This document shows, piece after piece, positions 48,601-54,600 of a stretch of DNA of 64,000 nucleotides (positions are counted from its first letter, which is position 1; each line of letters opens with the position of its first letter). The stretch comes from Raja brachyura (Eukaryota): the NCBI GenBank assembly GCA_963514005.1, contig OY740799.1, forward strand, positions 17,112,001-17,176,000, written 5' to 3'. The position numbers were made by a program.

Positions 48601-51600
48601 CCACACTGCAAATTTGCTAATGTTACTTTTATTTCCTTCATCTATTAATTGAGAATGAGGAATCTACATTTATGCCAGGCCTCCAGCCACACTGCTGGGC
48701 TCTGCTCATATCCTCATATGGCATTGCACTTCTCTGCTTCGTATTGTTTAACCCAAGCCTCAGTCACCGTGGTATGTTTGCGTTCTACAGCACAGCTCAA
48801 ACCCAAGAACTGTCACTCACCTTGGAGACGCTGGATCTGTTTGGCAAAGTTTTCAGTCTGTTGCACATTGACCAATCGTTGTTCCTCCAGCAATCCTGCA
48901 GTGTTTGGAAAGGCAAGAGGTTGATATGACAGCGGCTAAATACATCGTGAATCTCCCTCTACACTCTTCCACTGAACATAGCCAGGGGAGGTAGAAGGGT
49001 AAAGCTCACCAGAGTGTTCCAAAAAGCAGGATGGCAGTGGGAGCTGAGGTCATGGACCTGCAACATTGACTCTATTCTCTACTCACAGATGCTGCCTGAC
49101 CTGTTGAATATTTCCAGCAATTTTAATATTTGCAAGAAAATGTAGGGAGCTATGAAGAAATAACAAGGGTTAATTGGCTGAGTAGGGACATAGCACATGA
49201 AATACAAAGTGGGAAAGTGGAAGAAAAAAGTAGAAATGTTGCTTTAATTTTTTTTAATTGGGTGTTGAAAAGATCTGCTGTTCAGAAATACTTGGACCAG
49301 TTTACACAAACCCTATGTGTAGGTTCAGCAAATCAGTAGGAAGGCAAATGGTATGTTGCCCCTTTTACAAGAGGTTTAAGTGCAGGAGCAAAAAACGTTC
49401 ATCCCGCAATTACAAGGGCAATTTGTGAGTTCAACTTCTCCAGATGCCTTTGTGATACTATATGTTTTCAGTTAGATATAATGCTATGGCCCAAAGGATG
49501 TAAAAGTGACGTCTCTTGCAGTCCCATATTGAGAAAGCAGGTCCTTCACTTTCCCTGTTTCTTCTGTCTGAATGTGCTGAAAGCTCCTAACATGACTAAT
49601 ACTCAAAATTGTAATGTCTTCTTATGAGAACAGACTCAATTTTCCTCACCTCTGACATTTATATATGCTATATGATGCTCCAAACATCCTGATATTTCTT
49701 CCCTACTGACTCCCCAACATGTCTCCCCAATACTTGAAACTGTCCATAAAAACCCTACATCTCCAAGTCTCATTCCTATATCCAACTCCCTGACCACCTT
49801 ATGTCAGTTCCTTCCGTCTATGCCTTGCCCCTCCAGCACAGCATGTCAAAAACTGATTCCCACAACTCCCCACCAGTGCTCAGCTTCACACCAATCAGGA
49901 CTATTCTTGCCAACCCTAAAACCCCCGTCTCATTCCTAGGACTGAGCATGGAATGCAGAACATCTGGCCTCACAACCCCCCCCTCCCCAAAAAAAACCAC
50001 TTTCCTTTATGAAATCCACTTACTTTGTAAGTCCAAATAGCTCCTCTGGTGCCGGGCTGCTTGTTCCCGAGACTCCTCCAATTCCTTCCGTAGCTGCTTA
50101 ATCTGCAACCTCAATTCATCCAATTCCAACATACAAAGCACATTGTTGCACGATTTAGGACTAGATGACCTCATGCTACATATTTCTGGTTTGCTTAATA
50201 GTTGGTCGTAAGACTTATGGAAACGTGCCATCATATCACAAAGTTCTAGATTAGCTGATATCACTGTAGATACTTTAGGATCAGTTGAGTTGATCTCAGC
50301 TGTTTTGGTAACAGATAACGCATCCTCACCTGGTTTAGGAATAGCTAACATGATCCCAGGAACCTTAGGAGCAATGCATCTAATGTCAGATGTCTTGGGA
50401 GCAGCTGACTTGATCTCGGAAGATTTGGGATCAGCTGCTTTGGTCTCAGACATGTTGAATACAGCGGACTTGATCTCAGAAACTTTGGAAGAAGCTGGCG
50501 TGACCTTGGAAAGTTCGGGATCAGTTGTTTTGGTCTCAGATATGTTAAGTGCAGATAACTTGACGTCAGATGCCTTGGGAGCAGCTGAATTGACCTCATA
50601 TTCCTGGGAAGCAACTGACTTAACTTCTGCCTCATTGGGACCATCGGATTTGATTTTGTAATCAGTCGGCATGACTGACGTTATCTTAAAATCATTGAGA
50701 GCAGATAATGGGACCTCAAAAGGCTTGGGATCAGCTGCCTTGGTCACTGACCCATTAGAAGCCGTTGACTTGATCTCAGACAACTTGGTAGTGCTAGACT
50801 TGACCTCAGAAAGTTTGGAATCAGTAGATGTGACTTCAGATGGTTTGAGATCAGTTGACTTCACTTCAACCATCTTGGGGCCAGCCGACAATACCGTGGA
50901 TTGGTTAGGATCTATTAACCCTATTGTAGATGGTTTGAGAGGTGTTGATCTAACCTCAGATTGTTTAAGATCAACTGACGTGACCCTAGATGGTTTGGGA
51001 TCAGATAACTGAACTTCTGTTTGTCTGAGATCAACTGGTTTCACCATGGATTGTTCGAAATATGTTGGGCTGAATTCAGGCACAGATGAATCAGTTGGTT
51101 TGACCTCAGCTGGGATGAGATCAGCAGACTTGAATTCAGGCATTTTAAGATCAATTGACTTGGCGTTGTATGGTTTGGAATGTGTTGATTCAATTTCCAC
51201 TAATTTAGGATCAGCTGACTTAACTTCTGACTGTTTAGCATCAATTGCCTTGGCCTCAGATGATGTAGAATGAGTTGTCTTGATTTCAGATGGTTTGCAA
51301 TCTGCTAATTTGACTCCTGACACTTCAGAATCAATCATCTTGGCATCAAATGGTTTGGGAAAAACTGTTTTGATCTCGGGTGGTTTGGAATCTGCTAATT
51401 TGACCTCTGACACTTTAGGATCAATTGTCTTAATCTCAGATGCCTTGTGTTCAGCTAATTTGACCTCTATCACTTTGGGATCAATTGTCTTGATATCAGA
51501 TGATTTAGAACACTCATTTTCAGATGGTTTGAAATCAATTAATTTGATCTCTGAGGCATTAGAATCAACTGCCTTGATGTCAGGTGATTTAGGGCATGTT

Positions 51601-54600
51601 GAATTGATTTCAGATGGTTTGGGATTATCTGATTTGATCTCTGATATCATCTTAACCTCACATGGATTGGAATATGTTGACTTGACCTCAGAAGATGTGT
51701 GAACAATTGACCCGACCTCAGATGTCTCAGAATTAGTTGACATGACCATGGTTGGTGTGAGATCAGGTAATTTGACATCAGTTGACTTGGAATCAGGTGA
51801 ACTGATCTCAGGAGCCTTGAGATTCATTGAATTTACCTCCGATATTTTGAATGCTTCTGATTTCACCTCACAGATTGGAATATCAGGTGGCTTCATATTT
51901 GACTCTGGATCTCCTGAAGATGAGACATTTGTCGTTGATTCATTTGCCTTGTTGTCTGCAGACAGCACATCACCTATGTAAAACAAATGTTGATAAAAAA
52001 TAAACCCAATGTAGAAAACACGATCAAAGGAGATACAGCGCCAGAAACCGATTCAACAGAACCTCTAAAGTGTTCGCCCTTGTGTGTCAGTGTGCTCAGT
52101 GTTGCCCCTGGCTGAGTGGAGAACACAGGACCAGATTCTCACTGCACAATGAGCACAGAGCCTATCTCTTCTACATAGTGTGCCACAAGCCCAGAGTCAA
52201 CCCAGTTCTGGTCACCATGACCTGACCACCCATCATTCAATAGACCATGTTCCATGCCATTTGTCACTCACTCCCCAATGTTCCGACTGTCCGTTCCTCA
52301 TGGACAATGTGTCAAAGACTGCATTTCTCAGCATGTCATGTCCAGAGCCCCTTCTCTCACTGGTCTGTGCTCCAATGCTGTTGTTTACACAACTGAGGCC
52401 AGTATCAACCCTGATTGGACGGCATGCCCAGAGCACATATTTCATGGGACATGCACTGAGTTTATTCACCGTGCAAAACATGCCGAAAGGCTGATTGTCA
52501 CTGGACTGTGTGCTCAGAACCACCCCTCAATACATAATTTCTCTCTAGGGTGGCACAGTGGAAGAGTTGCTGCCTTAGATCACCAGAGACCCAGGTTCGA
52601 TCCTGACCTTGGGCACCATCTGTACGGAGTTTGTACGTTCTCCCTGTGACCGCATGGGTTTCCCTTTGGACGCTCCAGTTTCCTCCCACATTCCTAAGAC
52701 TTACAGGTTTATAGGTTAAATGTGTAGGAAGGAACCGCAGATGCTGGCGTATACCAGAGATCGACGCAAAATGCTGGAATAACTCAGCGGGTCAGGCAGC
52801 AACTCTGGAGAAAAGGAATAGGTGACGTTTTGGGTGGAAACCCGGGTATGAAGAAGGGTTCTGACCTGAAACATCACCTATTCCTTTTCTCCAGAAATGC
52901 TGCCTGATCCGCTGAGTAATTCCAAAATCCTTGTGTAAGGAAGGCCAACATATGTATTGTCCTCCATATGGTTGTCCTCCATATGCACCTAGATGTTAGC
53001 CTTCAGTGACCTTTGCACAAACACAAGTAGGTCCCCAATTTCTCACATTTAACACTGTTTTTCAGTTATGTACATCTCAATGGATAGTGTAATTCTCCCC
53101 CACACATTATTGTTTATGTCACATCCTCCCACATTTATTCAACTTGTCCATGACCTCTTAAACCCTCATTCCATCTTCCTTCATACTCATAATCTCACCT
53201 GCTTGAGCATCATGAGCAATGATGTTTCATACCCTCAGGACAATCATTGATATAGATTGTGAATAGCTGAGGTTCAATTAGATTTAGCAATTTTCATAAC
53301 ATGAGAAGCATCTATAGATTCCTTGCATTCTGCCTAACAATCACTAGTCAATCTATGTAGTGCATTATTATTATGTATTCCATCACACTCCTAATGTTTA
53401 GATGATGGAAAGGTCTGTGGGTGTCATGAGGTGAGCCACAAACCACAGGTGGTTCAGCCTTTGATCTGCTCCTAAATTCACGTATTTATGAGCTTGCTCC
53501 AGTTGAGCTTCTGGTACTTGGTGACTCCCAGGATGCTGATAGTGAGAATGGCTGGATGGAGCAGCTATCGTTGCATTCCATTCCTATACTATACTCTCTA
53601 CTATCAGGAGACACCTCAAACCAGTAGAGAGAGATAACACCAATCCTGTCTCTGCAGAATAAGCTCACCAATATTAGCATCCTCTCTGAGCCCATCATAG
53701 CTGGCATTAAGGCTCTTCACTGAACCAGCTGCAAAGTAGAGCCACATTATTTGCCTAACTTCCAAATCAGGTGCACAATTGCAAGTTCCATCACAATAAG
53801 AAATTACAAAAAGAGCAAATAAAGGAACATCCTCACTGATTTATCAGAATTGAAATAAAGTAGCATCCTCATTGACTGGTGTCTCAAATGTGCGATTATC
53901 ATTAATCTTTGCTGGTTAGTCCATTTTTCCCTTGTTCAATCATTGGCCAGTCGTTAGTGTTTTCACATTGCCACATGATCCTCTGTCTGGATACCACACT
54001 ATGCCGCTGCAATGTTCTCATTCCAGCCTGGTTTCCAAATACTGCAGGGCAGAGGGTCCATTGTGGCACAGATATGTACCTACACAGGATGAGCCTGTCA
54101 AATGACATACCATGAAAATCTGTTTTTCAGCTGTACGACTATCATCTATGTACAGAGAATCATAAGTGAGAGAGAGGAATATATAGAAAAATGCGTACTA
54201 CAAAAGGAGAGAGGGAGAGAGAGTTGGGAGTGTGCAGCTCCTTGGTGGTGCTATTTGAAGCGAGTATGTGCAATGTTGATCCTATTCCACATCCTTCAAA
54301 GATGAGGCACGACATACGAATATAATTTAACAACCCCCGTCGCGGTGTGATCCACACAAGGCTGCTGCCTGGCACTGTAGTATCAGTTATAACAGCCGCC
54401 TGTATTTCCAACATGCAGTAAGATGTGGCAGTGAGGTTTCATATATAATATCATGGTTAAACATTTGCTTTCAGTTTAAAAATCTTGCAGCAATAGCAAA
54501 ATGGAGTCAGGGTGATTGGTGCAGCAGTGAGTTTCAGGATGGTGGAGAGTGTGCTAGAGGTCATGGTAGTGAACATGGGGTGAACAACTGAAGAGAGTGT

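What the first reader, a model, noticed from the sequence alone, without database searches (positions are those of the whole stretch)
50024..51973. Giant 1950-nt exon of ~55 decapeptide repeats inside a CCDC136/SLMAP-family tail-anchored protein
Seen: an uninterrupted frame built of 30-nt units with consensus about S-E-[VI]-K-S-[TA]-D-P-K-[PV] (SEVKSADPKL, SEIKTIDPKV, VEVKSTDLKP), with local 20- and 30-aa higher-order periodicity. The units are highly diverged yet contain no stop or frameshift over ~1.65 kb, which suggests purifying selection on length and composition. The exon starts G|DVL and ends in the conserved coiled coil, so it occupies the place of the mammalian CCDC136 exon (G|EVLL...poly-E...ELEELRAQ, from memory), where only a short acidic tract is found. 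It is phase 1/1 and so skippable. Inference: a lineage-specific, disordered PEVK/neurofilament-tail-like spacer or phospho-array on a membrane-anchored coiled coil.
Basis: partly seen in the sequence, partly recalled or inferred. Interest (0 to 1): 0.75.

Follow-up and report, generated by a model that had tools for sequence, protein, structure and literature searches.

The report
Giant decapeptide-repeat exon in CCDC136
A 1,950-base exon of the membrane-anchored coiled-coil gene CCDC136 carries about 55 diverged copies of a ten-residue unit that has stayed readable, most likely a floppy protein tail; whether it is transcribed or shared by relatives could not be checked.

Summary
Window 51973-50024 is a 1,950-nt open frame with a pyrimidine-tract/AG acceptor and a GTAAGT donor, phase 1/1. 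Residues 34-577 are 53 full and 2 partial decapeptides, consensus S-E-V/I-K-S-T/A-D-P-K-P. Lag-10 identity is 0.29, against 0.085 in shuffles (z 17).

There are no stops, where neutral decay from the consensus would give about 20 (0 of 3,000 simulations stop-free). E2, K4 and K9 keep codon positions 1-2 but vary at position 3.

The gene is CCDC136. A neighbouring exon is 74-79% identical to named CCDC136 proteins. Six downstream exons are phase-consistent and end in a tail anchor. A filamin exon lies downstream.

Only the last ~35-77 residues of the giant exon match orthologs: 80 of 120 hit it, none in the repeat.

The repeat has no relative among 1.84 billion representative proteins. An AlphaFold2 model shows no structure there.

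PEVK-like and phospho-array labels are poorly supported. Expression and conservation in relatives stayed unchecked.

Verdict: a real but ordinary kind of thing, a coding tandem-repeat expansion in a known gene.

The parts
50024..51973 (-). Giant exon of the CCDC136 ortholog, 1,950 nt, phase 1/1
   Evidence: Open frame and splice sites. Zero stops against 27 and 96 in the other same-strand frames, with shuffle control.
50241..51872 (-). Tandem array of 53 full and 2 partial decapeptide units (exon residues 34-577), consensus S-E-V/I-K-S-T/A-D-P-K-P
   Evidence: TRF period 30/90 rows. No secondary structure and pLDDT below 50 in the AF2 model.
50025..50126 (-). Conserved start of the CCDC136 coiled coil (exon residues 616-649, from the E-L-D-E-L-R motif to the exon end)
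   Evidence: 80 of 120 orthologs hit 50016-50255 and nothing further 5' in the exon. Local alignments. AF2 helix 611-648.
48821..48895 (-). 75-nt exon, phase 1/1, conserved coiled-coil segment
   Evidence: 90 of 120 orthologs hit it. AG/GT sites and phase.
44175..44495 (-). 321-nt exon, phase 1/1, the best-conserved coiled-coil exon, used to name the gene
   Evidence: 74-79% identity to named CCDC136 proteins; 96% to P0081. 120 of 120 orthologs hit it..
40062..40179 (-). 118-nt coiled-coil exon
   Evidence: 54 of 120 orthologs hit it..
36191..36629 (-). 439-nt variable exon
   Evidence: Matched only by P0081, at 45% identity. Splice sites and phase.
34426..34560 (-). 135-nt coiled-coil exon preceding the anchor
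   Evidence: 21 of 120 orthologs hit it..
27075..27179 (-). Last coding exon: hydrophobic tail anchor followed by five residues and the stop
   Evidence: 54 of 120 orthologs hit it, up to 78% identity. Reading frame and stop.
9811..10161 (-). Neighbouring gene: first coding exon of a filamin (N-terminal calponin-homology domain), same strand, downstream
   Evidence: Pfam CH domain, E 3.4e-11. PDB filamin-B and filamin-A chains, E 4e-53 to 1e-50.

Best explanation
This is a genuine coding exon of the CCDC136 ortholog, probably its second coding exon.

Origin (inferred). A 30-nt unit inside the low-complexity N-terminal part of the exon was amplified in frame. The likely route is slippage or unequal exchange, with some later duplications of 60- and 90-nt blocks. 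The amplified part lies just upstream of the conserved start of the coiled coil. The copies then diverged to about 49% pairwise nucleotide identity. Selection removed stops and frameshifts and kept four positions of the unit: E2, V/I3, K4 and K9.

Product (inferred from composition and a single-sequence model). About 540 residues of near-neutral, serine-rich polyampholyte with regularly alternating charges and two prolines per unit. Such a chain is expected to be an extended, disordered chain.

Function (inferred). The protein is anchored by its C-terminal transmembrane segment, so this chain is the membrane-distal N-terminal end of a cytosolic coiled-coil rod. It would act as a long flexible projection. 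Either it is an entropic bristle that extends reach or excludes volume, or it is a multivalent platform presenting about 50 copies of an E-[VI]-K...K motif.

Shown: exon anatomy, repeat, coding constraint, gene identity, position in the protein.
Inferred: mode of origin, disorder, function. Transcription and translation themselves are also inferred.
For: Exon anatomy:
- AG/GT sites and phase 1/1.
- Six downstream exons are all AG/GT and phase-consistent down to a stop after the tail anchor.

Coding constraint:
- 0 stops in 53 units. Column permutation gives a mean of 4.1 stops, with 11 of 3,000 runs stop-free. Neutral decay from the consensus at the observed 31% divergence gives a mean of 19.6, with 0 of 3,000 runs stop-free.
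- All length changes are multiples of three, and 42 consecutive units have no indel.
- E2, K4 and K9 keep codon positions 1-2 at 0.70-0.87 identity to the consensus, against 0.53-0.60 at position 3. Both synonymous codons are in use: GAG 24/GAA 10, AAG 18/AAA 13, AAA 23/AAG 9.

Gene identity and filamin neighbour.

Position in the protein:
- 78 of 80 orthologs begin with Met, with a median of 84 residues before the conserved motif.

Physical character:
- FCR 0.28 and NCPR -0.02. Charges are more evenly mixed than in 300 shuffles: 0.022 against 0.052, sd 0.006.
- The AF2 single-sequence model has pLDDT below 50 and no secondary structure for residues 1-548. Helices appear only at 551-558, 565-593 and 611-648.

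Not a dispersed element within this window: 0 of 55 blastn HSPs and 0 of 4 tblastn HSPs fall outside the exon.
Against: - There is no transcript or peptide evidence of any kind.
- No ortholog of the array was found, so conservation between species is unknown. The only close relative in the protein sets, P0081, starts downstream of this exon.
- Averaged over the unit, codon positions 1, 2 and 3 are almost equally conserved (0.67, 0.72, 0.67). Pooled unit dN/dS is about 0.7 at saturated dS. Constraint on the peptide sequence is therefore weak.
- On the Uversky charge-hydropathy rule the array falls slightly on the 'folded' side: mean H 0.445 against a boundary of 0.419.
- A single-sequence AF2 model is often poor, so low pLDDT is weak evidence of disorder.
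- The upstream start exon is not identified.
- In-phase donor-like sites inside the exon (near residues 34, 104 and 548) and in-phase AG sites (near residues 288 and 497) leave room for internal splicing.
Confidence: 0.6

Rival explanations
1. The array is an intronic or exonised 30-bp minisatellite that is rarely or never part of the mature mRNA. Real transcripts would enter the conserved 3' part through another acceptor or an alternative first exon, or would remove the array as an internal intron.
For: - There is no expression evidence.
- None of 120 orthologs has anything matching the array.
- In-phase donor-like sites (near residues 34, 104, 548) and in-phase AG sites (near residues 288, 497) exist inside the exon.
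- 1,950 nt is far above the usual size of an internal vertebrate exon (general knowledge).
Against: - Zero stops and no frame-breaking indel at 31% divergence from the consensus. 0 of 3,000 neutral simulations are stop-free.
- Third codon positions are free at E2, K4 and K9 while positions 1-2 are kept.
- The open frame stops just 26 codons upstream of a good acceptor.
- No in-phase AG with a pyrimidine-rich tract was found between residue 520 and the conserved motif.
Confidence: 0.12
2. The array is a folded repeat domain, such as a beta-solenoid or another regular rod built from ten-residue turns, and not a disordered chain.
For: - Strict ten-residue spacing over 42 units with no indel.
- Conserved hydrophobic position 3 and semi-hydrophobic position 6.
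- The charge-hydropathy value lies on the folded side.
- The best library hits are repeat proteins with dominant periods of 10, 5 or 20 (66 of 79), some of them pentapeptide-like.
Against: - The AF2 model shows no strand or helix in residues 1-548 and pLDDT is about 27-41 there.
- Two prolines per unit.
- No repeat family in Pfam reaches its threshold.
- None of the 79 library hits shares anything else with this gene.
Confidence: 0.1
3. The array is chiefly a phosphorylation array. Its charge and stiffness would be tuned by kinases, as in neurofilament side-arms.
For: S+T make up 23.5% of the array, and serine is the consensus at positions 1 and 5.
Against: - Only 1 KSP, 6 S/T-P and 10 S/T-x-x-D/E in 540 residues.
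- The consensus unit contains none of the kinase motifs I scanned for.
- The serine columns show no excess of conservation at codon positions 1-2 over position 3. At position 5, position 3 is the most conserved.
Confidence: 0.1
4. The array is an assembly artefact, a mis-assembled or inflated repeat.
For: Tandem repeats are a common site of assembly error (general knowledge).
Against: - The units are far too diverged to be collapsed or inflated by an assembler. Mean pairwise identity is 0.49, and the most similar pair is 0.90 over 30 nt.
- There is no N in the window.
Confidence: 0.02

Closest known systems
CCDC136 of bony vertebrates (lungfish, salamanders, frogs, gar, bichir, teleost ccdc136a/b)
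   Same: - Orthologous coiled-coil exons: 74-79% identity over 106 residues.
- The same order of segments.
- The same tail anchor.
- A filamin gene next door. CCDC136 and FLNC are named as neighbouring human chromosome 7 genes in the abstract of PMC5702371 (listing).
   Different: In 80 orthologs the segment before the coiled coil is a Glu-rich stretch with a median of 84 residues and no ten-residue period. Here it is 615 residues, of which 544 are the decapeptide array, and it is not acidic.
Titin PEVK segment, neurofilament side-arms and MAP projection domains (disordered repeat 'springs' and 'bristles'; properties recalled, not from a call)
   Same: A long, proline-containing, charged, repetitive and probably unfolded region attached to a structural protein. 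It works like these if the disorder inference holds.
   Different: P+E+V+K is 38%, not the large majority. The period is 10, not about 28. There is no KSP array (1 KSP). The chain is near-neutral with alternating charges. No sequence relationship was found.
Tail-anchored coiled-coil tethers of the Golgi, such as giantin, golgin-84 and CASP (recalled)
   Same: A C-terminal membrane anchor, a long cytosolic coiled coil, and a functional end far from the membrane. Mammalian CCDC136 is reported to be needed for acrosome formation (passages of PMC12101322 citing Geng et al. 2016).
   Different: No homology was tested or claimed, and no tethering motif was identified in the array.
Pfam PF25296 'Decapeptide repeat region'
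   Same: Ten-residue repeats. A weak match covers exon residues 493-523.
   Different: 19.9 bits against a cut-off of 45, and no stretch passes on its own. This is not membership.

Membership tests
CCDC136 | Sequence homology of the coiled-coil exons to named CCDC136 proteins | tested here: met
   442 proteins at E <= 1e-3 among 1,105 candidates. The best named hits are CCDC136 of lungfish, salamanders and teleosts at 74-79% identity; 120 of the 120 listed proteins map back to exon 44175-44495.
CCDC136 | Conserved start of the coiled coil (E-L-[DE]-E-L-R ...) at the 3' end of the exon in question | tested here: met
   80 of 120 hit 50016-50255 at E <= 1e-3; the other 40 do not reach that threshold.
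CCDC136 / SLMAP-type tail-anchored proteins | A single C-terminal hydrophobic segment followed by a few residues and the stop | tested here: met
   54 of 120 orthologs match exon 27075-27179. Three of the listed relatives are named 'sarcolemmal membrane-associated protein' by their source.
CCDC136 | Filamin gene as neighbour (FLNC in human) | tested here: met
   A filamin CH-domain exon lies at 9811-10161(-). Which filamin paralogue it is was not resolved.
CCDC136 | Pfam PF28341, which the source tables list on the orthologs | not testable with these tools
   PF28341 appears in the precomputed column, but the local Pfam copy returned no such family.
Titin-type PEVK segment | Composition dominated by P, E, V and K, with repeats of about 28 residues (criterion recalled) | tested here: not met
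   P+E+V+K is 38.3% and the period is 10.
Neurofilament-type KSP phospho-repeat | Recurring K-S-P or S/T-P sites | tested here: not met
   1 KSP and 6 S/T-P in 540 residues.
Pentapeptide-repeat beta-helix | Match to the family profile and a beta-helical fold | tested here: not met
   No pentapeptide family at E <= 1. No strands in the AF2 model of the array. Proline is the consensus at the centre of every second pentad.
Pfam PF25296 Decapeptide repeat region | Score at or above the gathering cut-off | tested here: not met
   19.9 bits against 45.
Dispersed repeat / transposable element | Further copies elsewhere in the genome | tested here: inconclusive
   There are none in the other 62 kb of the window. 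The rest of the genome could not be searched.

The most novel reading that the evidence does not exclude
The array is an old, conserved and functionally selected organelle-tethering 'tentacle'. About 50 copies of an E-[VI]-K...K motif would sit at the membrane-distal tip of a golgin-like tail-anchored rod. They would bind a partner multivalently, or be modified on the conserved lysines. On this reading the array is shared across cartilaginous fishes as a lineage-wide remodelling of CCDC136 function, for instance in acrosome or photoreceptor membrane traffic.
Probability: 0.15. Interest if true: 0.55.

Novelty: new variant of a known kind. Interest (0 to 1): 0.33.

Why it matters
If the exon is transcribed, the N-terminal part of a conserved tail-anchored coiled-coil protein is about seven times longer here than in bony vertebrates. 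Mammalian CCDC136 is reported to be needed for acrosome formation (passages of PMC12101322). It is also described as a cone-photoreceptor-enriched transcript (abstract of PMC4786810).

It would be a clean natural example of a coding minisatellite that selection keeps open while most of its sequence drifts. The constraint is readable at four of the ten positions.

It also matters for annotation. Gene predictors may split the gene here: the only close relative in the protein sets is a model that starts downstream of this exon.

It does not open a new class of system. Coding tandem-repeat expansions in disordered regions are common.

Tried and rejected
Searches that found no relative of the array:
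- Plus-strand reading of the stated coordinates gives many stops.
- HMMER search of the whole exon against 1,835,955,588 representative proteins: 79 hits at E <= 1e-3, 10 at <= 1e-10, 0 at <= 1e-30. The five I read are unrelated repeat proteins. 0 of 79 match any of four CCDC136 exon pieces. I take them as repeat or composition matches.
- Word-indexed search of the exon among proteins of 1,137-3,245 residues: none. The tool itself calls this weak evidence.
- The same length range with only residues 571-649: 23 candidates, none scoring.
- The 'near' length range (357-1,136 residues) was not searched with the exon, because all 3 searches of that tool were used. The exhaustive representative search has no length limit.
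- ESM Atlas look-alikes: best score 0.79, which the tool says chance reaches.
- Pfam on the exon: only the sub-threshold PF25296 and DUF6767.

Upstream exons:
- None of 120 orthologs matches anything 5' of 51973.
- A coiled-coil-looking ORF at 61599-61787(-) has no ortholog match.
- A possible start exon (ATG, one codon, one base, then GTGAGT, at 58103-58097(-)) is only a pattern match.

Errors on my side:
- Searches used 46 ten-residue windows, the first four of them two residues out of register. One search repeats the consensus and the stop tests with the correct 53 units. The dN/dS was not repeated.
- One search failed on a frame slip of mine. I corrected it at the same tool.

Literature:
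- 'CCDC136': 188 papers, 25 listed.
- 'CCDC136' with 'shark': 2 papers, neither about this by title or abstract start.
- 'CCDC136' with 'tandem repeat': 7 papers, none about this by title or abstract start.
- A six-term search was too loose to be informative.
- So I found nothing in print on a repeat exon in CCDC136. This covers only that library; supplements were closed and not consulted.

Not done:
Every exon was handled on its own.

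
Full report
**Observation**

The finding gives no strand. On the plus strand the stated interval is full of stops. On the minus strand there is a stop-to-stop frame of 681 codons at 50007-52052. It is the longest in the window; the next is 324 codons.

It is 1,950 nt long. A pyrimidine-rich tract and AG precede it, GTAAGT follows it, and it is phase 1 at both ends. 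The window has no N.

The other two minus-strand frames hold 27 and 96 stops. In 500 dinucleotide-preserving shuffles the longest ORF averaged 105 codons and never exceeded 234.

**The repeat**

Printed ten residues per line, the translation stays in one register from residue 158 to 577.
- Identity at lags 10, 20 and 30 is 0.29-0.30, and no other lag exceeds 0.135.
- 2,000 residue shuffles give 0.085 +/- 0.012 with a maximum of 0.125, so z = 17.
- A variable exon of the same gene gives 0.044 at lag 10.
- In the correct register there are 53 full units and two in-frame partial ones of 6 and 8 residues. That is 55 units over residues 34-577, window 51872-50241. The consensus is TCTGAGGTCAAGTCAACTGATCCCAAACCA, or SEVKSTDPKP.
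- My first pass used 46 windows, four of them two residues out of register. One search corrects this.
- Higher-order structure is local. TRF finds period 90 in two stretches at 73-74% matches. Among the 60 most similar unit pairs, 5 lie two units apart and 6 lie three units apart. The two best pairs, both 90% identical, are two and three units apart.
- Mean pairwise unit identity is 0.49, so the array is old and not homogenised.

**Is it coding?**

- The 53 units contain no stop.
- Permuting bases within alignment columns gives a mean of 4.1 stops, and 11 of 3,000 runs are stop-free.
- Letting the consensus decay neutrally to the observed 31% divergence gives a mean of 19.6 stops, and 0 of 3,000 runs are stop-free.
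- Every length change is a multiple of three.
- Averaged over the unit, the three codon positions are about equally conserved (0.67, 0.72, 0.67). Pooled unit-against-unit dN/dS is about 0.7 at saturated dS.
- The columns differ, though. E2, K4 and K9 keep positions 1-2 at 0.70-0.87 and position 3 at only 0.53-0.60, and both synonymous codons are in use. V/I3 keeps its middle T at 0.87. Columns 5-7 show no such pattern.
- So selection keeps the frame and a charged and hydrophobic skeleton (E, V/I, K ... K), and little else.
- The repeat has no other copy in the window. The rest of the genome could not be searched.

**The gene**

Exon translations were searched one at a time.

- The ORF at 44176-44493(-) finds CCDC136. 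There are 442 proteins at E <= 1e-3, and the best named ones (lungfish, axolotl, Pleurodeles, teleost ccdc136a/b) are 74-79% identical. One unnamed model, P0081, is 96% identical.
- Mapping the 120 listed proteins back onto the window gives hits only on the minus strand, at seven places. The counts are: 50016-50255 (80 of 120), 48735-48932 (90), 44104-44517 (120), 40040-40192 (54), 36191-36649 (1, P0081), 34417-34593 (21) and 27063-27215 (54). One further weak hit lies at 39953-40180.
- The exon ends at these places all have AG and GT. The phases chain correctly from the giant exon to a stop five residues after a hydrophobic C-terminal segment.
- Further or alternative exons cannot be excluded. 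Orthologs have middle segments with no match here.
- About 17 kb downstream on the same strand lies the first coding exon of a filamin. CCDC136 and FLNC are named together as chromosome 7 genes in the abstract of PMC5702371 (listing).
- I do not take the window for human. Which vertebrate it comes from was not established by any search.

**Where the array sits**

- Only the last 35-77 residues of the giant exon align with orthologs. The conserved E-L-D-E-L-R motif begins at exon residue 616.
- In the 80 orthologs that hit this part, the motif is preceded by a median of 84 residues (range 6-244). Those residues are 27% Glu. 78 of the 80 begin with Met.
- So in bony vertebrates this is the N-terminal end of the protein, short and acidic. 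Here it is 615 residues and not acidic (D+E 15% in the array).
- The 'G' of 'G|DVL' is the acceptor's own G read through. The upstream exon is unknown. A pattern match for a minimal start exon at 58103(-) is only a lead.

**Relatives of the array**

None was found.
- The exhaustive HMMER search of 1.84 billion representative proteins gave 79 weak hits, the best at 3.8e-18 and 28% identity.
- Their dominant periods are 10 (31 hits), 5 (20), 20 (15) and 15 (7), with 6 others. None shares any other CCDC136 exon.
- Two word-indexed searches among longer proteins found nothing.
- The Atlas search stayed at chance level.
- Pfam gave only a sub-threshold match to PF25296.
- P0081, the one close relative, starts in the intron after this exon. 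Between it and the window the coiled-coil exons are 82-96% identical but the variable exon only 45%. Disordered parts of this gene therefore evolve fast, and failure to find the array by similarity says little about its presence elsewhere.
- No vertebrate genome collection was on hand, so conservation in relatives stayed unchecked.

**Physical character and likely mechanism**

- Composition of the array: S 16%, K 13%, P 9%, E 8.5%, V 8%. The fraction of charged residues is 0.28 and the net charge per residue is -0.02.
- Charges are more evenly mixed than in shuffles, 0.022 against 0.052 +/- 0.006.
- The AF2 single-sequence model gives pLDDT below 50 and no secondary structure for residues 1-548, and helices at 551-558, 565-593 and 611-648. 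This is weak evidence, because single-sequence models are often poor.
- The charge-hydropathy rule puts the array marginally on the folded side.
- I read the array as an extended, disordered polyampholyte. The protein is tail-anchored, so the array is the end farthest from the membrane. It is a projection rather than a spacer.
- From general polymer figures, 540 residues give a contour length near 200 nm and a coil size of roughly 20 nm. This is inference, not from a call.
- The most likely roles are an entropic bristle or reach extender, or a multivalent display of the conserved E-[VI]-K...K skeleton.
- The PEVK and neurofilament analogies fail their own criteria: P+E+V+K is 38%, and there are 1 KSP and 6 S/T-P. 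The 'works like' analogy to disordered projection domains stands.

**Context from papers**

- Passages of PMC12101322 describe human CCDC136 as a 1,154-residue, largely disordered acrosomal protein with alternative C-terminal anchors. Citing Geng et al. 2016, they say knockout mice have malformed acrosomes and are infertile.
- The abstract of PMC4786810 (listing) calls Ccdc136 a putative cone-photoreceptor-enriched transcript.
- I found nothing in print on a repeat exon in this gene. Supplements were closed and not seen.

**Verdict**

The exon is very probably coding.

It is a new variant of a known kind: a coding tandem-repeat expansion in the disordered end of a known gene. The decisive data are transcripts of this species and the syntenic exon of its relatives, and both lay outside the tools.

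Noticed in passing
window 9811-10161 (-): First coding exon of a filamin (N-terminal calponin-homology domain), downstream of CCDC136 on the same strand. It lies in a stretch of higher G+C, 47-48% at 6-12 kb. Which filamin paralogue it is was not resolved.
   Followed up: partly
window 19545-20099 (-), 47880-48413 (-); also 30856-31737 (-), 44995-45501 (-): ORFs that look like decayed retroelement pieces. The first two share a long similar stretch with each other (read by eye). None has a Pfam match at E <= 1e-3. Three of them lie in CCDC136 introns.
   Followed up: partly
window 24780-28108: A strongly strand-skewed, pyrimidine-rich (on the minus strand) low-complexity tract surrounds the last CCDC136 exon. 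It gives long spurious ORFs in several frames and high GC and AT skew.
   Followed up: no
window 58097-58103 (-), and 58193 (-): ATG, one codon and one base, followed by GTGAGT. This would give a phase-1 start exon compatible with the giant exon. An in-frame ATG lies 30 codons further upstream. It is a pattern match only.
   Followed up: partly
window 51871, 51661, 50329 (donor-like); 51109, 50482 (AG sites), all (-): In-phase GTGAGG donor-like sites and in-phase AG sites inside the giant exon. They could allow internal ('exitron'-type) splicing that shortens the array without breaking the frame.
   Followed up: no
window 61599-61787 (-): A short coiled-coil-looking ORF with a good acceptor at 61715. 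None of the 120 CCDC136 proteins matches it. It may be chance, or it may belong to another gene.
   Followed up: partly
window 36191-36629 (-): The variable exon of CCDC136 is only 45% identical to the close relative P0081, while the flanking coiled-coil exons are 82-96% identical. The disordered parts of this gene evolve very fast.
   Followed up: partly
window 50024-51973 (+): One antisense frame of the exon has only 6 stops in 650 codons. This is probably a by-product of the repeat's codon make-up.
   Followed up: no
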